A DNA stretch of 64,000 bases from IMG/VR virus record IMGVR_UViG_3300025030_000012; one strand, 5' to 3'. The translations under genes were made by a program, and so were the position numbers. Below, in pieces: positions 35,527 to 41,040 of this stretch (position 1 is the first letter of the stretch; each line of letters starts with the position of its first letter). Under the pieces are notes generated by a model that made no database searches, had not been told where the DNA came from, and was given only the letters and a program-made list of their open reading frames with translations. Source of the DNA: a virus.

Positions 35527-38151
35527 ATGGATGAAACCAACCTCGAGGAAATGTCGGTCGAGGAATTCCGTGAACTCCAAGCCGAAGCCGACCGCATAGA
35601 ATTCTCCCAGGCGAAAGAAAACTTCGCCGTCTACTGCGGTCTCCACATCCCGGCAGAGGTCGAAAAAGACGACATGCCGAGGCTGCATGAATTGAGCCTG
35701 CCGGCGCGGTACATTCCGGCGACGCATCACCAGTTGATTTGCAAGTTGTTGCAGGCGCTGGAAGAGGGCGAGCTGCATGGGAGGAAGTTCAGGAACCTGA
35801 TTATTCAGGCGCCGCCTGGTAGTGCGAAAGCGCTTGCGCTCGATACGCCGATTCCAACGCCATCGGGCTGGCGCAGAATGGGCGACATGCAGATCGGAGA
35901 TTGCGTATTCGATGAGCAAGGAAAGGTGTGCCGCGTGACATGGGTCAGCCCAATCTTCAAGGACAGGCCGGTCTACAAGGTGCTCACTGACTGCGGAGAC
36001 GAAATCATCGCCGACCATGACCACGAGTGGCGTGCGCGACTTGATAGAAGGCACGGCGCATTCCGAGATCACGAGACACACATCATCGCTCGACGGCGTA
36101 ACAAACGGGCCATGGTAGAGCACGCGAAGGCTCTTGACCTACCAGACGCAAATCTTCCAATCGACCCCTACCTGCTTGGGATGTGGCTCGGAAACGGTAA
36201 CAGCGCAGGACTTCGCATTACTTGCCATCAAGATGATGTTAGCTGGGTGCGCGACGAGCTTGGTCGTCTTGGATATAAGACATCCGATTCATCGTCGCCT
36301 TTGAATTTTGGAGTGCTCGGCGTTCGCCATCTCTTCGTGCAACTCGGTCTAGTCAATGATCCTGCACACAAGACCTATGGGAAAAAATACATCCCCAAGA
36401 TTTACATGCGCGGATCAATAAGGCAACGGCTCGCACTGGTTCAAGGGCTCATTGATTCGGATGGAACGGTTAGCAACAAGCAAGGATCTGCGACGTTCTG
36501 CAACACCAACGAATGGCTGGCATTGCAGTTCAGAGAACTGGTGCGCTCGCTCGGCGTCAAGGCTGGATGGTCGGTGTCAAAGGCAATGCTCTATGGCGTC
36601 CAACATGGTATGGCCTATCACGTTTCCTTCTACATGAAGGAGGCCGCGCGCTCTCCACGAAAGAGCGCAAACGCGAGAGATCAGTACCGAACTCCAAACA
36701 CGTATATCTCAGCGGAGCCATGCGGGACTGCGGATACGATCTGCATCGAAGTTGATTCACCATCTCATCTCTATCTATGTGGCGAGTCAATGACTCCTAC
36801 GCACAACAGCACCTACTGTTCGCATTTATTTCCATCGTGGTATCTCGGCAAACATCCAGCATTTAATGTGATTCAGGGATCACAGACGGATGATCTTGCC
36901 CATCGCTTTGGACGTAGAGCGAGAAACACGTTTGCAAGTGAACTGCATCACAAGGTCTTCAATGTTGGCGTCGCGTCAGATTCGCGCGCAGCAGGTTCTT
37001 GGGAAACAGAGAAAGGTGGCGAATACTTTGCCACTGGCGTTCAACCTTTTGCCGGAAGACGCGCGGAACTCCTTTGTATCGACGACGCCATCCGGGGACA
37101 AGAGGATGCGGATTCGCAAAATGTTCTGGACAAGATTTGGAACTGGTATGTTCATGATGCCTGGCCTCGCCTGAAACCGCACGGAAAACAGGTCATCGTT
37201 TCAACAAGATGGTCAGAGGGGGACATCATCGGCCGCATCATCCCCAAAACCTTCGCCGGCAAAACCGGATGGGTCAAGGGCAAAGACGGCGAGATGTGGT
37301 ACGTCCTCTGTTTGAAAGCCGTGATCGAGACCGAAGAGGACGCCGCCAACGATCCGCTCGGGCGCAAGGTGGACGAGATCCTGTGGCCGGAATGGTTCAC
37401 CCGCGAGATGATGGACACCGCCAAGGTCAAGGCCGGGATCAGAGGCTGGGCCGGGCAGTACCAGCAGATGCCAAGACCCGAAGGCGGAGCCATTCTGCTC
37501 TCGAACTGGTGGCGCGAATGGAAACAGGAACTGCCGAAAGTCGAGTACGTCATCCAGGTCTACGATACGGCTTTCGAGGAAGGCGAGGAAAACTCCTACT
37601 CGGCTCGAACAACCTGGGGAATCTTTTCTCACACAGATACCCTGCAAAAGAAGGATGGTCTCAACGTCGAGCGGACACGATACTGCTGCATCCTGCTTGA
37701 GGCGTGGCGCTCCAAGTGTGAATTCACCGAACTGCGGGATGAGGCGAAACGGGGATACAAGCGATACCGGCCGGACCGGGTGCTGATCGAGAAGCGGGCC
37801 AGCGGCCATTCACTTTTGCAAGAACTCCGCCGCGCCGGACTCCCGGTACGCCCGGCAAATCCGAAGTGGATGGGGCGCTCCAAGCGTGCCCGTGCCTACG
37901 CCGCTCAGACCGTGCTCGAGGACGGCTGCGTCTTCTACCCCTGCAAGTTCAGGGAAGGGACGTGGACGCCTTACTCGTGGGCGCTGCCGGTGGTCGACGA
38001 GGTCGCCGGCTACCCGGATGGAGAATTCACCGATTACGCCGACACTGCCATCCACGCCTGGCTCTGGCTGCGCCAGCACTGGCACCTGAAGCTGACCGAC
38101 GAGGACGAGGACAAGCCGGTGGAGAAACGACGCATCCAGATGTTTGGGTAG
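35527..38151 (+). CDS. terL: Terminase large subunit, intein-containing
   Basis: Walker A APPGSAK|ST, Walker B LLCIDD, STRW motif, nuclease domain DTAF, VLIEKRASG, DYAD. Confidence 0.95.
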   Translation: MDETNLEEMSVEEFRELQAEADRIEFSQAKENFAVYCGLHIPAEVEKDDMPRLHELSLPARYIPATHHQLICKLLQALEEGELHGRKFRNLIIQAPPGSAKALALDTPIPTPSGWRRMGDMQIGDCVFDEQGKVCRVTWVSPIFKDRPVYKVLTDCGDEIIADHDHEWRARLDRRHGAFRDHETHIIARRRNKRAMVEHAKALDLPDANLPIDPYLLGMWLGNGNSAGLRITCHQDDVSWVRDELGRLGYKTSDSSSPLNFGVLGVRHLFVQLGLVNDPAHKTYGKKYIPKIYMRGSIRQRLALVQGLIDSDGTVSNKQGSATFCNTNEWLALQFRELVRSLGVKAGWSVSKAMLYGVQHGMAYHVSFYMKEAARSPRKSANARDQYRTPNTYISAEPCGTADTICIEVDSPSHLYLCGESMTPTHNSTYCSHLFPSWYLGKHPAFNVIQGSQTDDLAHRFGRRARNTFASELHHKVFNVGVASDSRAAGSWETEKGGEYFATGVQPFAGRRAELLCIDDAIRGQEDADSQNVLDKIWNWYVHDAWPRLKPHGKQVIVSTRWSEGDIIGRIIPKTFAGKTGWVKGKDGEMWYVLCLKAVIETEEDAANDPLGRKVDEILWPEWFTREMMDTAKVKAGIRGWAGQYQQMPRPEGGAILLSNWWREWKQELPKVEYVIQVYDTAFEEGEENSYSARTTWGIFSHTDTLQKKDGLNVERTRYCCILLEAWRSKCEFTELRDEAKRGYKRYRPDRVLIEKRASGHSLLQELRRAGLPVRPANPKWMGRSKRARAYAAQTVLEDGCVFYPCKFREGTWTPYSWALPVVDEVAGYPDGEFTDYADTAIHAWLWLRQHWHLKLTDEDEDKPVEKRRIQMFG
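35830..36807 (+). mobile_element. Class 3 (Ala1, WCT) intein (326 aa) with LAGLIDADG endonuclease
   Basis: Starts ALALDTPIPTPSGW; block B DHDHEW, block F DTICIEV, block G TPTHN then Ser+1; LLGMWLGNG and LVQGLIDSDG motifs. Confidence 0.9.
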
Positions 38152-38152
38152 G

Positions 38153-38558
38153 TGGCGGAAGGCTGAAGAATCGAACTCCGAACCCTGCTTAGGTGTCCCC
38201 CTGGTTTTCGACTAAATCGTTTTGCGTGTTTCAGTTCTGATGGCGTGACAGTTGGCGCATACCACGTCACATTTTGCAATCTCAGCATGTAGGACGGCGA
38301 TGTTTTTGATCTTGGCTGTGGCGCTGCCGATAGCGAGGTTCTTCTTGCCACGAACATGATCGAACTGCATCGCGCAGGTAGGATACTCAATGCCGCAATC
38401 GGCGCATGGCCTTGCTTTTGCCAACCCGATCACACGCCTGATCTCGGCGCGACGCTCGCGCGTATAGATCGTCATATACGCCCGCTGTTTCTTTTGGTCC
38501 GAGTATGGCAAGATAGTTGAATACTAACATGGAACGGACCGTTCCAGCGGAGCCTTCC
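38153..38558 (-). pseudogene. tRNA-Ser(CGA) split by an HNH cassette (5' part about 38538-38558, 3' part 38153-38211)
   Basis: GGAAGGC pairs with GCCTTCC-G-CCA; the 3' part begins T-CGA-AA-ACCAG and has a long variable arm and T arm. Confidence 0.7.
38212..38511 (-). CDS. HNH endonuclease inserted in tRNA-Ser(CGA)
   Basis: CADCG...FDHVRG...CDVVCANCH; the TAG stop abuts U33 of the tRNA. Confidence 0.85.
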   Translation of the reverse strand: MPYSDQKKQRAYMTIYTRERRAEIRRVIGLAKARPCADCGIEYPTCAMQFDHVRGKKNLAIGSATAKIKNIAVLHAEIAKCDVVCANCHAIRTETRKTI

Positions 38559-38566
38559 GTTGATGG

Positions 38567-38661
38567 TGGCGGAAGGTGCAGGACTTGAACCTGCGCGGCC
38601 CTACTGAGGTGCCGACTTCATCTTAGCAGGATGATGCATTACCGGGCTCTGCCAACCTTCC
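38567..38661 (-). tRNA. tRNA-Ser(GCT)
   Basis: GGAAGGT/ACCTTCC-G-CCA, TCATC-CT-GCT-AA-GATGA, long variable arm. Confidence 0.92.
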
Positions 38662-38689
38662 GATGATTAGGAAGATCGACTTGATCGGG

Positions 38690-38761
38690 CGAACCGTATG
38701 GGAGTCGGACCCATCTTGACAGGTTGAAAGCCTGTTGGCCTCACCGGAAGCCGAACGGTTC
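38690..38761 (-). tRNA. tRNA-Glu(TTC), variant T-loop, no encoded CCA
   Basis: GAACCGT/ACGGTTC, ACAGG-CT-TTC-AA-CCTGT, T-loop TCCGACT. Confidence 0.8.
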
Positions 38762-38815
38762 CGGTGGTCTCTCGTGTAAGCGCGGTTTTCATGGTGTAAA
38801 AAGTATATCAGGTTT

Positions 38816-38893
38816 TGGTGCGCCCGGAAGGATTCGAACCCTCGACCCGTGAGGTAGAAGCTCACTGCTCTTGATCCACTGAGCTACGGGCGC
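38816..38893 (-). tRNA. tRNA-Arg(TCT)
   Basis: GCGCCCG/CGGGCGC-A-CCA, GTGAG-CT-TCT-AC-CTCAC. Confidence 0.93.
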
Positions 38894-38894
38894 T

Positions 38895-38971
38895 TGGCCC
38901 GCCGAGTAGGATTCGAACCCACAACCTCCGCGTTCGAAGCGCGGCGCTCTTGTCCGTTGAGCTATCGGCGG
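38895..38971 (-). tRNA. tRNA-Arg(TCG)
   Basis: CCGCCGA/TCGGCGG-G-CCA, CCGCG-CT-TCG-AA-CGCGG. Confidence 0.93.
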
Positions 38972-38998
38972 CAGAATTATCTGCGCCGACGCCTGAGT

Positions 38999-39075
38999 TG
39001 GTGCTGCTGGCAGGGAATCGAACCCGCGACCGCTTGCTTACGAGGCAAGTGCTCTACCGCCTGAGCTACAGCAGC
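38999..39075 (-). tRNA. tRNA-Thr(CGT)
   Basis: GCTGCTG/CAGCAGC-A-CCA, CTTGC-CT-CGT-AA-GCAAG. Confidence 0.9.
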
Positions 39076-39124
39076 GATGCGCGTTCGTGTTGTGGTTTCC
39101 ATGACCGGCATGATACATGAATGT

Positions 39125-39199
39125 TGGCGACGCAGAAGGGATTCGAACCCTCATCGTACGGATAGACAATCCGTTGCATTGCCTGTCTGCCACTGCGCC
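39125..39199 (-). tRNA. tRNA-Asp(GTC)
   Basis: GGCGCAG/CTGCGTC-G-CCA, ACGGA-TT-GTC-TA-TCCGT. Confidence 0.9.
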
Positions 39200-39202
39200 A
39201 AT

Positions 39203-39278
39203 TGGCTCCTGGGGTAGGACTCGAACCCACGACCCGCTCCTTAACAGGGAGCCGCACTACCTGCTGTGCTACCCAGGA
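39203..39278 (-). tRNA. tRNA-Asn(GTT)
   Basis: TCCTGGG/CCCAGGA-G-CCA, GCTCC-CT-GTT-AA-GGAGC. Confidence 0.93.
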
Positions 39279-39282
39279 ATTC

Positions 39283-39358
39283 TGGTGGAGATGATCGGAA
39301 TCGAACCGACGCGCTTCCGGTTGCAGGCCGGATGCTCTCCCTGCTGAGCTACATCCCC
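39283..39358 (-). tRNA. tRNA-Ala(TGC)
   Basis: GGGGATG/CATCTCC with G3.U70, TCCGG-CC-TGC-AA-CCGGA. Confidence 0.92.
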
Positions 39359-39365
39359 GAAATTC

Positions 39366-39436
39366 TGGAGCGGTCTGCGAGGATCGAACTCGCGCTGCCG
39401 GCTTGGAAGGCCGTTACACGCCAACGTGGAGACCGC
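39366..39436 (-). tRNA. tRNA-Gly(TCC) with truncated D arm
   Basis: GCGGTCT/AGACCGC-T-CCA, D arm ACG-TTGG-CGT, CT-TCC-AA loop. Confidence 0.8.
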
Positions 39437-39462
39437 GTCGGCGGCATTGTACTTCAAAAGTG

Positions 39463-39539
39463 TGGTACCCCGGAAAGGATTCGAACCTTCAATAGCCTCG
39501 TTCTAAGCGAGGAGACTTTGCCATTTTGTCCACCGGGGC
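39463..39539 (-). tRNA. tRNA-Leu(TAG) with short variable loop
   Basis: GCCCCGG/CCGGGGT-A-CCA, CCTCG-CT-TAG-AA-CGAGG, 5-nt variable loop. Confidence 0.88.
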
Positions 39540-39545
39540 GTTATT

Positions 39546-39630
39546 TGGTGATGAGTGATGGAGTCGAACCACCTATGCCGAGCATGCTTGAGGGTTACAG
39601 CCTCACCGATTGCCGTTCTCGCAACTCACC
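39546..39630 (-). tRNA. tRNA-Tyr(GTA)
   Basis: GGTGAGT/ACTCATC-A-CCA, TGAGG-CT-GTA-AC-CCTCA, long variable arm. Confidence 0.92.
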
Positions 39631-39631
39631 T

Positions 39632-40159
39632 TGGTGGGCCTGCTGGGACTCGAACCCAGAACATCTTCACGCTTGGCTATGACAGTTTGGGCAAAGGAAT
39701 CGAAGATTCTTCTTCCTATCGTCCAACCTATTCCTATTACGATGATCCACATCCAATACCAGAGGCTTACCTTTCCATTCTGGCCCCAACCCACACTGCT
39801 CACATAGATGGGGGACCCCACTCTCAATCAAAGCCCTTCGCAAATACGCCGCACCTTGTCTGTCACCAACATCACGTTTAACTAAAATACTTGCCGCTGT
39901 TCTCCTTGGCTGTTTCTTTCCTTTGTTCCATGCTCTACCTGTGAAATGACTGGTGTCTACCCCAGCCCTCTGCATCCTTCTTCGTATGTGCCCATGGCTA
40001 CCCCCAGGGAGCAATATACCCAAAAATCTCAACACCCCTGTGATGGAGGTTGAATTCTCTGCGGCTTCATGAAGTTGATCATCTGAATAGCGTGGCATTC
40101 GCTATTCTAACACGAAATTACAGAGAGGCAAGCGCGACTGCCAATTGCGCCACAGGCCC
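39632..40159 (-). pseudogene. Leu-like tRNA split by an HNH cassette (5' part about 40126-40159, 3' part about 39632-39681); anticodon unresolved
   Basis: GGGCCTG/CAGGCCC-A-CCA, Leu-type D arm GCGCAATTGGCAGTCGCG, then CTTGC-CT; the 3' part has CCAAG, a variable arm and T arm CTGGG-TTCGAGT-CCCAG. Confidence 0.7.
39667..40098 (-). CDS. HNH endonuclease inserted in the Leu-like tRNA
   Basis: CEQCG...LDVDHRNRNRLDDRKKNLRFLCPNCHSQ; the last codons overlap the tRNA 3' half. Confidence 0.9.
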   Translation of the reverse strand: MPRYSDDQLHEAAENSTSITGVLRFLGILLPGGSHGHIRRRMQRAGVDTSHFTGRAWNKGKKQPRRTAASILVKRDVGDRQGAAYLRRALIESGVPHLCEQCGLGPEWKGKPLVLDVDHRNRNRLDDRKKNLRFLCPNCHSQA

Positions 40160-40200
40160 AGCGTTTAGCTGAGTCGGTATCGCAATCGTAAAGGCGCTTG

Positions 40201-40275
40201 GGGGTGACTGGTGAGAGTCGAACTCACGATAAGGGAGTCACAATCCCTTGGCTTGGCCGCTTGCTGACAGCCACC
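40201..40275 (-). tRNA. tRNA-His(GTG)
   Basis: G-1 GTGGCTG/CAGTCAC-C73, AGGGA-TT-GTG-AC-TCCCT. Confidence 0.88.
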
Positions 40276-40324
40276 CCGAAACGTCCTTCGTCCGGTGCGA
40301 AGTGGGCGGCAATGTCGGGATTTG

Positions 40325-40397
40325 CGGGGGCGGCTGGACTCGAACCAGCGACCAACGATGTCAAAGACCGTTGCTCTACCAACTGAGCTACGCCCCT
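40325..40397 (-). tRNA. tRNA-Gln(TTG), no encoded CCA
   Basis: A1.C72 mismatch, G2-C71, G3-C70, G73; ACGGT-CT-TTG-AC-ATCGT. Confidence 0.8.
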
Positions 40398-40418
40398 TGA
40401 TCGTCTGTCGTTTTAGGT

Positions 40419-40493
40419 TGGTCAGAGCGGAAAGATTCGAACTTTCGACAACCGGCTTCCAAAACCGGGACTCTACCCCTGAGCTACGCTCTG
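40419..40493 (-). tRNA. tRNA-Pro(TGG)
   Basis: CAGAGCG/CGCTCTG-A-CCA, CCGGT-TT-TGG-AA-GCCGG. Confidence 0.92.
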
Positions 40494-40535
40494 AGATAAC
40501 GGGTCGCGGTCGTGGAGAATTGGAATCCATGCGCG

Positions 40536-40564
40536 AGTAAATCACAAATCAGGCCGTACCGCAA
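40536..40564 (-). promoter_or_regulatory. Putative promoter of the tRNA array
   Basis: TTGCGG-17-TTTACT upstream of tRNA-Pro. Confidence 0.45.
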
Positions 40565-40575
40565 CCTGCCCCTTG

Positions 40576-40617
40576 CGTCGAGAATTCGACAGGAGTACGC
40601 TTGTCGGGTTTTCGACA
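40576..40617. promoter_or_regulatory. Two palindromic boxes (40576-40591, 40602-40617)
   Basis: CGTCGAGAATTCGACA and TGTCGGGTTTTCGACA; 26-bp pitch; the second abuts the SD of the next gene. Confidence 0.65.
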
Positions 40618-40627
40618 GGAGGTCAAA

Positions 40628-41040
40628 TGACAACACCTCAATACAAGCGTGACCAAGCGCTGTCCAGGATGAAACAAATAGTGGGCCCCGCGCTAAGACC
40701 GAGCACCACATCAGGTATCACGTCACGTAGTGACCTTGTTCCTCGCACCAAAATCAATATGTCGCCGCAATCACTCCCCGCACCGACAGTGAGCGCACAG
40801 CGAGTGGAGAAATCCATGCCTCCTGGCCGTCCTGGCGTATTCCGAGTGGAGAAATCCACACAGCCAAATCCGGGCCCTGGTCCGAGTAATCCCGCTTTGC
40901 AAAGGCAAATGGTTGACAGGGCGAGACAGATAACGGCTAAAGCTCCTATGCCTCCTAGCCGTCCTGTACCCGTGGCACCGGACGTGCAAATCAGACCACC
41001 GAGCCCCGGCCGAGGTGTGGTGAGCAAGCTCAAGCGGTAA
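40628..41040 (+). CDS. Pro/Arg-rich low-complexity hypothetical protein
   Basis: SD AGGAGG before ATG 40628. Confidence 0.5.

What the first reader, a model, noticed from the sequence alone, without database searches (positions are those of the whole stretch)
38153..38558. tRNA-Ser(CGA) split at the anticodon arm by a self-promoted HNH cassette
Seen: the 5' acceptor/D part (GGAAGGC...) and the 3' part (T-CGA-AA-ACCAG...GCCTTCC-G-CCA) are about 325 bp apart. The HNH stop codon abuts U33. The roughly 26-nt spacer before the HNH start holds an extended -10 element (TG-T-TAGTAT). The 5' strand of the anticodon stem appears to be missing. Inference: a homing endonuclease targets conserved tRNA anticodon DNA and either destroys the tRNA or is removed by an unknown processing route. 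There is too little non-coding sequence for a group I ribozyme core.
Basis: partly seen in the sequence, partly recalled or inferred. Interest (0 to 1): 0.72.

Follow-up and report, generated by a model that had tools for sequence, protein, structure and literature searches.

The report
Phage tRNA-Ser gene split by HNH
A selfish DNA-cutting enzyme gene (HNH) has inserted into the anticodon loop of the last tRNA gene of a phage tRNA array, and the two tRNA pieces have since decayed, so this is a dead tRNA left by an intron-less homing element, not a new kind of tRNA intron.

Summary
On the minus strand, 8 nt after tRNA-Ser(GCT), a 5' tRNA piece (38558-38537) and a 3' piece (38211-38153, U33 to CCA) flank a 99-aa HNH gene (38511-38212).

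- **One former gene.** An intact, HNH-free tRNA-Ser(CGA) in another phage array (L142) matches the joined pieces at 69 of 81 nt. It places the insert exactly between C32 and U33.
- **Dead tRNA.** About 10 nt of the D arm are gone, the anticodon stem keeps 3 of 5 pairs and the variable arm no longer pairs. None of 6000 trial joins gives a tRNA at ARAGORN's default threshold.
- **No intron.** Rfam finds no ribozyme, and only 25 nt of the insert are non-coding.
- **A recurrent habit.** Relatives of this HNH sit in tRNA arrays with their reading frame running into the next tRNA. The closest clade always runs into tRNA-Ser(UGA), and one relative (L112) is nested in a split tRNA-Ser together with a spare tRNA.
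- **A second case.** An unrelated HNH splits another tRNA in the same array, behind the same TGTTAGWAT motif.

Best reading: an intron-less homing endonuclease that targets tRNA anticodon-arm DNA, here without a replacement tRNA. Splicing is not supported. This scan has noted the same kind of element on other DNA (e1-5524843, e1-5467817).

The parts
38567..38661 (-). tRNA-Ser(GCT), the intact upstream neighbour. The same Ser(GCT)-then-Ser(CGA) order is seen in L142, L016 and L035.
   Evidence: ARAGORN, Rfam 55.9 bits
38537..38558 (-). 5' piece of the former tRNA-Ser(CGA). It holds the acceptor strand GGAAGGC, then U8, then CCGCT, then, after a gap of about 10 nt relative to the intact allele, GG-AA-CGGT-C (a degenerate anticodon-stem strand plus C32).
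   Evidence: Sequence. The first 13 nt are identical to the intact L142 tRNA-Ser(CGA) and the rest aligns with gaps.
38530..38546 (-). Perfect 7-bp hairpin TGGAACG-GTC-CGTTCCA across the tRNA/insert junction, followed by a T-rich stretch. It is terminator-like and its function is unknown.
   Evidence: Consensus scan
38521..38529 (-). TGTTAGTAT, an extended -10-like motif 9 nt upstream of the TTG start. Its only other copy in the window (TGTTAGAAT, 40112-40104) lies 5 nt upstream of the second HNH gene.
   Evidence: 2 matches, 0.24 expected
38212..38511 (-). HNH endonuclease gene (99 aa, TTG start). The zinc and catalytic residues C36, C39, D51, H52, C85, N87, C88 and H89 are intact.
   Evidence: PHROG 3106 E 1.3e-22 and PHROG 2255 E 7e-21. 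Invariant columns. AlphaFold model with pLDDT 87.8. Best solved match is the Gme HNH nicking endonuclease 4H9D, Z 5.3, rmsd 3.5 A, 62 residues. No Pfam hit.
38153..38211 (-). 3' piece of the former tRNA-Ser(CGA): U33, anticodon CGA, AA, stem strand ACCAG, a degenerate long variable arm, the T arm (GGAG/CTTC with TTCGATT), the acceptor strand GCCTTCC, G73 and CCA.
   Evidence: Sequence. 11 of the top 20 matches are tRNA-Ser. 45 of 55 nt match the orphan 3' fragment of L112. Aligned to L142. Rfam does not score it as a tRNA.
40126..40159 (-). 5' piece of a second split tRNA (GGGCCTG acceptor, D arm, CTTGC-CT). It is a parallel case in the same array.
Evidence: ARAGORN in intron mode calls a tRNA across 40159-39632.
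39667..40098 (-). Second HNH gene (143 aa, a different PHROG family, starts MPRYSD). Its relatives run into tRNA-Leu(TAG).
   Evidence: PHROG 10822 E 5.8e-45
39632..39671 (-). 3' piece of the second split tRNA: variable arm, perfect T arm CTGGG-TTCGAGT-CCCAG, acceptor strand CAGGCCC, A73 and CCA. About positions 34-43 of this tRNA are absent.

Best explanation
This is the remains of a tRNA-Ser(CGA) gene, the last gene of a minus-strand phage tRNA array.

**What happened.** A 325-nt cassette landed between C32 and U33 of the anticodon loop. The cassette holds a short leader with an extended -10-like motif and a 99-aa HNH endonuclease gene.

**What the HNH is.** It belongs to a large family of small free-standing HNH genes that live in phage tRNA arrays, usually with the reading frame running into the 5' end of the next tRNA gene. 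I infer that it is, or was, a homing endonuclease. It would cut HNH-free tRNA-Ser alleles of co-infecting relatives in or near the anticodon arm and be copied in by recombinational repair, with the tRNA flanks serving as homology arms.

**Why there is no splicing.** No self-splicing vehicle is needed, because a single phage tRNA is dispensable. In related elements the cassette brings or regenerates a working tRNA. Here it does not, so tRNA-Ser(CGA) is simply dead and has begun to decay. The insert is not removed at the RNA level.

**Shown:** the anatomy, the HNH identity, the intact allele elsewhere, the decay of the pieces, the absence of a ribozyme, and the recurrence of the layout.

**Inferred:** nuclease activity, the target site, homing, and promoter use. 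Also unresolved is whether the window's form is a primary insertion or a nested form (as in L112) that later lost its spare tRNA.
For: 1. **One gene, clean insertion.** L142 holds an intact tRNA-Ser(CGA) directly after tRNA-Ser(GCT). The joined window pieces match it at 69 of 81 nt, while other shared isoacceptors of the two arrays match at only 64-72%. The junction falls at C32|U33.

2. **Decay.** About 10 nt of the D arm are absent, 3 of 5 anticodon-stem pairs remain and the variable arm is unpaired. None of 6000 trial joins gives a tRNA at ARAGORN's default threshold. Rfam gives no tRNA hit for the 3' piece alone.

3. **No intron machinery.** No Rfam family, group I or II included, scores in 38140-38566 at E up to 10. 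Only 25 nt of the insert are non-coding.

4. **The HNH is intact.** PHROG E 1e-22, invariant Cys4 and D-H...N...H residues, a confident model, and HNH nucleases as the top structural matches.

5. **Family habit.** In 21 distinct relatives' loci the ORF stop lies from 53 nt inside to 7 nt before a same-strand tRNA. All five lineages at 58% identity or more run into tRNA-Ser(TGA), and the conserved protein end RTE[ST]RK coincides with the tRNA's GGAAG start.

6. **Same scar elsewhere.**
   - L112-L116 (HNH 69% identical) have a 5' tRNA-Ser fragment, the HNH, an intact spare tRNA-Ser(TGA) and a 3' fragment. That 3' fragment is 45 of 55 nt identical to the window's.
   - Orphan 5' stumps also lie upstream of the HNH in L029, L057 and L131.

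7. **Second case in this array.** An unrelated HNH splits another tRNA behind the same TGTTAGWAT motif, and that tRNA also lacks about 10 nt at the junction.

8. **Literature.** HNH genes are the most widespread coding sequences in tRNA arrays (PMC5966550). T4 SegB is a proven homing endonuclease inside a tRNA cluster (PMC2330249).
Against: - No HNH-free allele was found at this locus in a close relative of this phage. The nearest terminase relatives (73% and 64% identical) have no tRNA array there, and L142 is a different phage. Presence/absence polymorphism, the hallmark of homing, is therefore shown only across unrelated arrays.
- Nuclease activity and target are untested.
- The placement at C32/U33 depends on a gapped alignment of a 22-nt piece. 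Apart from its perfect match to L142's opening nucleotides (1-13, acceptor plus 6 more), the 5' piece is only weakly tRNA-like.
- The acceptor strands, T loop, G73 and CCA are untouched while the interior decayed. That could hint at selection on the frame, although homing that refreshes the distal flanks would give the same pattern.
- HNH 1 has a TTG start and no Shine-Dalgarno sequence, so it may be poorly expressed or already defunct.
Confidence: 0.72

Rival explanations
1. The frame is kept for a purpose. The acceptor stem, T arm and CCA of the split tRNA bracket the HNH message, so that RNase P and the 3' trimming enzymes cut it out of the long tRNA-array transcript as a tRNA-shaped mRNA with paired, protected ends. 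The tRNA would be dead as a decoder but alive as a processing signal.
For: - Both split tRNAs in the window keep 7/7 acceptor complementarity, a T arm, the discriminator base and CCA, while their interiors are broken.
- In a thermodynamic fold of the G1-to-CCA transcripts the acceptor helix forms with probability above 0.98.
- By established knowledge, an acceptor/T-arm minihelix is a sufficient RNase P substrate.
Against: - Most family members have no such frame and simply sit between tRNAs.
- Two complementary GC-rich ends will pair in any fold, so one search is weak evidence.
- With roughly 8 changes over 84 nt, leaving 14 acceptor positions untouched has a chance of about 0.2 (my estimate).
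- Homing that renews the distal flanks predicts the same pattern.
- A promoter-like motif and a terminator-like hairpin between the 5' piece and the ORF suggest the message starts downstream of the 5' acceptor strand.
Confidence: 0.1
2. The two pieces are not the two sides of one simple insertion. The 5' piece would be the stump of a displaced tRNA. The 3' piece would be what is left of the cassette's own spare tRNA, or of a regenerated copy, after an internal deletion. That is a nested form like L112 or L029 that later lost the 5' half of the inner tRNA.
For: - Across the family the HNH is normally followed by an intact tRNA whose first bases encode the R-K end of the protein. The window keeps R-K (CGC AAA) followed by 9 nt of unclear origin before U33.
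- L029 shows a 21-nt duplicate of the downstream tRNA's 5' end upstream of the HNH, so a stump and an inner tRNA can share an acceptor sequence.
- Both window cassettes lack the usual intact tRNA.
Against: - The window's 3' piece is closer to L112's outer fragment (45 of 55 nt) than to its inner tRNA (40 of 53 nt).
- The pieces join without loss at C32|U33 when aligned to the intact L142 allele. That is what a simple insertion predicts.
- The outcome, a dead tRNA and no splicing, is the same under either history.
Confidence: 0.12
3. The insert is an intron removed at the RNA level, by a cryptic ribozyme, by a bulge-helix-bulge endonuclease plus ligase, or by a phage RNA repair system. This would yield a working tRNA-Ser(CGA).
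For: - The insert lies in the anticodon loop, the classic site of bacterial group I and archaeal tRNA introns.
- The scan has seen genuine HNH-bearing group I and bulge-helix-bulge tRNA introns elsewhere (e1-689348, e1-4365901).
- The phage carries other RNA-biology genes, including Ro60.
Against: - No ribozyme signal, and only 25 non-coding nt.
- The exons have lost about 10 nt of the D arm and their stem pairing, so even exact removal gives no tRNA.
- The second split tRNA lacks its anticodon region altogether.
- The relatives' layout (L112) includes a spare tRNA, which would be pointless if the host tRNA were spliced.
- tRNA genes with encoded CCA and terminase relatives in phages of bacteria point to a bacterial host without a splicing endonuclease.
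- No RNA ligase was seen among 10 large ORFs scanned, although that scan was not exhaustive.
Confidence: 0.03

Closest known systems
T4 SegB (GIY-YIG) and the T5 tRNA-region HNH nicking endonucleases: free-standing homing endonucleases inside phage tRNA gene clusters (PMC2330249; the T5 enzymes from my own knowledge)
   Same: A small free-standing endonuclease gene sits among phage tRNA genes. It is thought to cut the tRNA region of relatives that lack it and to spread by repair, carrying the flanking tRNA DNA along.
   Different: SegB lies between intact tRNA genes and is a GIY-YIG enzyme. Here the gene lies inside a tRNA gene, in the anticodon loop, and kills it. The enzyme is a minimal 99-aa HNH. 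Activity is untested.
Gene-splitting free-standing endonucleases, e.g. mobE in the nrdA gene of Aeromonas phage Aeh1 (from my own knowledge); T4 mobE in PMC2790892
   Same: An intron-less HNH gene is inserted within a host gene and leaves two pieces.
   Different: In Aeh1 the two protein halves still assemble into a working enzyme. Here the two RNA halves cannot form a tRNA and have decayed.
HNH-encoding group I introns in the anticodon loop of bacterial tRNA genes (tRNA-Asn and others; earlier scan notes e1-689348 and e1-1042184)
   Same: An HNH gene lies in the anticodon loop of a tRNA gene, and the flanks act as homing arms.
   Different: Those carry a ribozyme core of about 200 nt or more and splice. 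Here no ribozyme was found, there is no room for one, and the exons are broken.
'HNH plus spare tRNA' cassettes nested in split tRNA genes (earlier scan notes e1-5524843 and e1-5467817; seen here in L112-L116)
   Same: Same HNH family habit, same target region, and the same 5' stump and 3' fragment flanking the cassette. The window's 3' piece is 45 of 55 nt identical to the L112 fragment.
   Different: The window's cassette has no spare or regenerated tRNA, so the isoacceptor is lost. I found no published description of either form.
HNH endonuclease genes as the commonest coding sequences in tRNA array units of mycobacteria and their phages (PMC5966550, which cites Pope et al. 2014)
   Same: HNH genes are interleaved with arrayed tRNA genes and are implicated in the turnover of the tRNA repertoire.
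   Different: As far as I could read, that work reports co-occurrence. It does not report insertion within a tRNA, reading frames that end inside tRNAs, or clade-specific linkage to one tRNA. I could not read Pope et al. 2014.

Membership tests
HNH (beta-beta-alpha-metal) endonuclease | Significant match to curated HNH profiles | tested here: met
   PHROG 3106 E 1.3e-22, PHROG 2255 E 7e-21 and PHROG 4234 E 2.5e-10, all annotated as HNH endonuclease. Pfam-A gives no hit even at E 10.
HNH (beta-beta-alpha-metal) endonuclease | Catalytic D-H ... N ... H motif with a CxxC ... CxxC zinc site | tested here: met
   C36, C39, D51, H52, C85, N87, C88 and H89 are invariant in 13 sequences.
HNH (beta-beta-alpha-metal) endonuclease | Beta-beta-alpha-metal fold | tested here: inconclusive
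   The model has pLDDT 87.8, with strands at 48-52 and 81-85 followed by a helix at 86-98. The top matches are all HNH nucleases but are weak: 4H9D Z 5.3, Cap5 Z 4.8, T4 endonuclease VII Z 3.6, and Foldseek E is 0.5 or more.
HNH (beta-beta-alpha-metal) endonuclease | Metal-dependent DNA nicking or cleavage | not testable with these tools
   Needs purified protein.
Free-standing homing endonuclease gene | Presence/absence polymorphism at the same site, with an uninterrupted allele existing | tested here: inconclusive
   An uninterrupted tRNA-Ser(CGA) with the same acceptor, opening 13 nt, anticodon loop and upstream neighbour exists in L142, but in a different phage. No close relative of this phage carries the array.
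Free-standing homing endonuclease gene | Patchy spread of close homologues across unrelated genomes at equivalent sites | tested here: met
   Homologues at 58-69% identity lie in at least five unrelated contexts, always joined to tRNA-Ser(TGA). 21 distinct loci have the ORF ending at or in a tRNA.
Free-standing homing endonuclease gene | Site-specific cleavage of the allele that lacks it, and preferential inheritance in mixed infection | not testable with these tools
   Needs an enzyme assay and a co-infection or plasmid-to-phage homing assay.
Group I intron in a tRNA anticodon loop | Ribozyme core detectable by covariance model | tested here: not met
   No Rfam family of any kind scores in 38140-38566 at E up to 10 with relaxed filters, or in 37500-41000 at E up to 1.
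Group I intron in a tRNA anticodon loop | Exons join to a canonical tRNA | tested here: not met
   None of 6000 joins passes ARAGORN's default threshold. The best sub-threshold models have a 2-bp D stem and an unpaired variable arm. About 10 nt are missing relative to the intact allele.
Archaeal-type bulge-helix-bulge tRNA intron | Junctions in two 3-nt bulges around a 4-bp helix, and a host with a splicing endonuclease | tested here: inconclusive
   No formal search for the motif was run. The exons do not give a tRNA when joined. Encoded CCA ends and terminase relatives point to a bacterial host.
HNH-plus-spare-tRNA cassette (as in L112) | An intact tRNA overlapping the 3' end of the HNH reading frame | tested here: not met
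   After the R-K codons the window has 9 nt and a stop, then U33 of the outer tRNA. No tRNA is called at 38153-38260.

The most novel reading that the evidence does not exclude
Small HNH genes of at least two families would form a class of intron-less homing elements specialised on the anticodon loop of phage tRNA genes. Their messages would be built into tRNA processing in one of two ways. Either the reading frame ends inside the next tRNA, so that RNase P removes its stop codon. Or, as in this window, the message is bracketed by the surviving acceptor stem, T arm and CCA of the tRNA it split, which would excise and protect it. The split tRNA would then be a working RNA-processing frame, not a corpse.
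Probability: 0.1. Interest if true: 0.75.

Novelty: new variant of a known kind. Interest (0 to 1): 0.5.

Why it matters
Homing endonucleases are thought to survive inside genes only when carried by a self-splicing intron or intein, or else to sit between genes.

This locus and its relatives show a third way for RNA genes. The element inserts straight into a dispensable phage tRNA gene. It then either brings a spare tRNA or, as here, simply lets the tRNA die.

Three consequences follow:
- It gives a concrete mechanism for the rapid gain and loss of tRNAs in phage arrays.
- It explains orphan tRNA halves that gene finders miss or miscall.
- It offers a set of small, 99-aa nucleases with a predictable and testable target, the anticodon-arm DNA of one isoacceptor.

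It also warns that 'split tRNA' signals in phage genomes need not mean a new kind of splicing.

Tried and rejected
- **ARAGORN with introns allowed.** It found only a spurious hybrid of tRNA-Ser(GCT) with the 3' piece.
- **Brute-force joining of the pieces.** Nothing passed at the default threshold. At 95% of the threshold 15 inconsistent models appeared.
- **Rfam on the 3' piece alone and on the whole locus.** No tRNA, no intron.
- **DNA similarity to 50,697 GenBank phages.** No match.
- **Relatives through the terminase** in IMG/VR, metagenomes and the protein collection. None carries a tRNA array after the terminase.
- **Exact search for the T-arm/acceptor 27-mer in IMG/VR.** Nothing.
- **The window's genome.** It is not held.
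- **Sequence search of the PDB.** Nothing at E up to 1.
- **Look for an RNA ligase or splicing enzyme** among 10 large ORFs. None was found, but most ORFs were not scanned.
- **HNH 2 relatives in IMG/VR** by single-sequence patterns. Only one weak hit.
- **Similarity of the 5' piece beyond the acceptor strand to tRNA-Ser 5' halves.** Not significant, except against L016 Ser(CGA) (p about 0.02, uncorrected).
- **Joining L112's outer fragments.** This also falls below ARAGORN's default threshold, because the D arm is poor.
- **Pope et al. 2014 (PMC3958112).** Not held.
- **Role in terminase-linked DNA packaging.** Considered and dropped. This HNH is convergent with the terminase gene, and its family tracks tRNA arrays, not terminases.

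Full report
**1. What is there**

The window carries a minus-strand tRNA array from 40493 to 38153. ARAGORN finds 13 tRNAs there. Rfam adds one more, a tRNA-Glu(TTC) at 38761-38688.

Eight nt after the CCA of tRNA-Ser(GCT) (38661-38567) the sequence reads GGAAGGCTCCGCTGGAACGGTC (38558-37). Then comes a 325-nt insert (38536-38212). After it the sequence reads T-CGA-AA-ACCAG ... GGAG-TTCGATT-CTTC-A-GCCTTCC-G-CCA (38211-38153).

The insert is 25 nt of leader plus a 99-aa reading frame (38511-38212). Its stop codon TAG abuts U33. The two acceptor strands are 7/7 complementary. The intein-bearing terminase gene on the other strand stops at 38151.

A separate JGI contig (L111) is 99.97% identical across 3.9 kb, so the layout is not peculiar to one assembly.

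**2. The protein**

Pfam is silent, but PHROG families annotated as HNH endonuclease match at E 1e-22.

In an alignment with relatives, the Cys4 site and the D-H, N and H catalytic positions are invariant. The N-terminus MPY(S/A)D shows that the TTG at 38511 is the true start.

An AlphaFold model is confident (pLDDT 87.8). Its best solved matches are all HNH nucleases, though weakly:
- Gme nicking endonuclease 4H9D: Z 5.3, rmsd 3.5 A, 62 residues
- Cap5
- T4 endonuclease VII

**3. Are the two pieces one tRNA?**

Yes. A pattern search for an uninterrupted gene with the same acceptor, anticodon loop and 3' end found L142, a 45-kb IMG/VR phage contig. There an intact tRNA-Ser(CGA) follows tRNA-Ser(GCT) by 1 nt, the same neighbour as in the window.

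The joined window pieces match it at 69 of 81 nt. The other isoacceptors shared by the two arrays are only 64-72% identical.

The alignment puts the insert exactly between C32 and U33. The 5' strand of the anticodon stem survives as A-CGGT. What is missing is about 10 nt of the D arm. This rests on a gapped alignment of a short piece. Taken alone, the part of the 5' piece beyond the acceptor strand is only weakly tRNA-like.

**4. Is it spliced?**

The evidence says no.
- Rfam finds no tRNA, group I, group II or any other family across the locus, even at E 10.
- Only 25 nt of the insert are non-coding.
- None of 6000 trial joins gives a tRNA at ARAGORN's default threshold. Sub-threshold models are inconsistent and poor.
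- Against the intact allele, the D arm is truncated, the anticodon stem keeps 3 of 5 pairs and the variable arm no longer pairs.

Exons that were spliced into a working tRNA would not be free to decay like this.

**5. The family habit**

The HNH has more than 1200 relatives at E 1e-10. Of 80 IMG/VR loci fetched, 26 contain tRNA genes and about 25 have the HNH lying on the tRNA strand within an array.

In 21 distinct loci the reading frame stops from 53 nt inside to 7 nt before the next tRNA. All five lineages that are 58-69% identical to the window's protein run into an intact tRNA-Ser(TGA). The conserved protein end RTE[ST]RK coincides with the tRNA's GGAAG start, and the residues after it are just translated tRNA.

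L112-L116 (69% identical) show the same scar as the window, plus a spare tRNA. In order they carry:
- a 5' tRNA-Ser fragment (L112:733-764)
- a palindrome that contains the anticodon-loop sequence CTTGAAAACC
- the HNH gene
- an intact inner tRNA-Ser(TGA) (1074-1161)
- a 3' fragment (1173-1229) that is 45 of 55 nt identical to the window's 3' piece

Orphan 5' stumps also lie upstream of the HNH in three other loci:
- L029: a 21-nt duplicate of the downstream tRNA-Pro
- L057: tRNA-Met 1-40 next to the tail of an older HNH
- L131: a tRNA-Leu 5' half

Most junctions fall within tRNA positions 29-41, that is, in the anticodon arm. L029, in the D loop, is the exception.

**6. A second case in the same array**

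A 5' tRNA piece (GGGCCTG..., D arm, CTTGC-CT) and a 3' piece (variable arm, perfect T arm, CAGGCCC-A-CCA) flank a second HNH gene of a different PHROG family. ARAGORN in intron mode calls a tRNA across it.

Its relatives (61% and 56% identical) run into tRNA-Leu(TAG) in other arrays. By comparison with them, the window's copy lacks about positions 34-43 of the tRNA, so it too cannot be restored by removing the insert.

The motif TGTTAGWAT occurs only twice in 64 kb (0.24 expected). One copy lies 9 nt and the other 5 nt upstream of the two HNH starts. For HNH 2 it forms a full promoter-like site with the tRNA's own TTGCCT.

**7. Explanation**

An intron-less homing endonuclease cassette inserted into the anticodon loop of tRNA-Ser(CGA).

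The tRNA flanks would serve as homology arms during repair-mediated copying. That also explains why the distal parts (acceptor strands, T arm, CCA) look fresh while the parts next to the insert are worn. Each homing event renews the outer flanks from an intact recipient gene, while the inner flanks travel with the element.

Relatives compensate by carrying or regenerating a tRNA. This copy does not, and no other tRNA-Ser(CGA) is called in the window.

It remains open whether the window's form is primary or is a nested form that lost its inner tRNA. Nuclease activity, target, homing and promoter use are all inferred.

**8. Rivals**

- The acceptor/T-arm frame may be retained to process the HNH message (about 0.1). 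The helix is thermodynamically favoured, but this is weak evidence, and most relatives lack such a frame.
- The two pieces may come from an outer stump and an inner copy (about 0.12). The outcome would be the same.
- RNA-level removal (about 0.03) is disfavoured for the reasons in section 4.

**9. Known and new**

HNH genes in tRNA arrays are well known (PMC5966550). T4 SegB is a proven homing endonuclease in a tRNA cluster (PMC2330249). Free-standing endonucleases that split protein genes are also known.

Three searches of the held library did not turn up a published description of an HNH gene inserted in a tRNA anticodon loop without an intron. Nor did they turn up one of the ORF-into-tRNA habit with clade-specific tRNA linkage.

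This scan has, however, noted the same kind of element on other DNA (e1-5524843, e1-5467817, e1-1119399). I rate it a new variant of a known kind. The window's copy is the decayed, spare-less form.

Noticed in passing
window 38688-38761 (-): A tRNA-Glu(TTC) with an unusual T loop (GGG-TCCGACT-CCC) lies between tRNA-Arg(TCT) and tRNA-Ser(GCT). The whole-window ARAGORN run missed it, but Rfam scores it at 46.2 bits and ARAGORN finds it on the sub-region.
   Followed up: partly
window 39632-40159 (-): A second tRNA, with a long variable arm and of uncertain identity, is split by a second, unrelated HNH gene (143 aa). About positions 34-43 are missing. Its relatives run into tRNA-Leu(TAG). The -10-like TAGAAT ends 5 nt before the ATG, so the message may be leaderless.
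   Followed up: partly
HNH-family loci, e.g. L016:2811-3098, L023:369-686, L118:298-597, L131:1489-1923: In two HNH families the reading frame regularly ends 2-53 nt inside the next tRNA gene. RNase P cleavage at the tRNA 5' end would therefore remove the stop codon from the HNH message. This could act as a built-in brake on expression.
   Followed up: partly
L112:765-787 and L118:260-282: A near-perfect palindrome (GGTTTTCAAAG-C-CTTTGAAAACC in L118) lies just upstream of the HNH start. It contains the tRNA-Ser(UGA) anticodon-loop sequence and its complement. It may be a repair scar at the cut site or an operator that mimics the target.
   Followed up: no
L112:641-729 and L118:151-239: A conserved stretch of about 90 nt between tRNA-Cys and the HNH cassette has a shared hairpin (CCGGG...CCCGG, with one compensatory change) and long-range complementary ends (GCATCTCGA/TCGAGATGC against GGAAATCTC/GAGATTTCC). 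Rfam has no match.
   Followed up: partly
window 35527-38151 (+): The large terminase carries a LAGLIDADG-type intein. The 73%-identical relative P0122 (553 aa) lacks it and the 64%-identical relative P0123 (891 aa) has one. The terminase stop is 2 nt from the end of the split tRNA on the other strand.
   Followed up: no
L140:410-497 and L141:2322-2409: A tRNA-Ser(CGA)-like gene has the same acceptor (GGAAGGC/GCCTTCC-G-CCA) and anticodon loop but a non-canonical T arm (ATGG-CGCAACT-CCAT). ARAGORN does not call it.
   Followed up: no
L057:2733-3000: The tail of an older HNH gene (…KCDVVCANCHIIRT…) and a tRNA-Met 5' half (positions 1-40) lie directly upstream of a newer HNH gene, which is itself followed by an intact tRNA-Met. 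This looks like serial invasion of one site.
   Followed up: partly
L128:10377-11267: In the 64%-identical terminase relative, the position of the window's tRNA array is taken by an 890-nt non-coding stretch. It contains two copies of TTTGATGCTGTGACAGGTTATTTGTCC.
   Followed up: no
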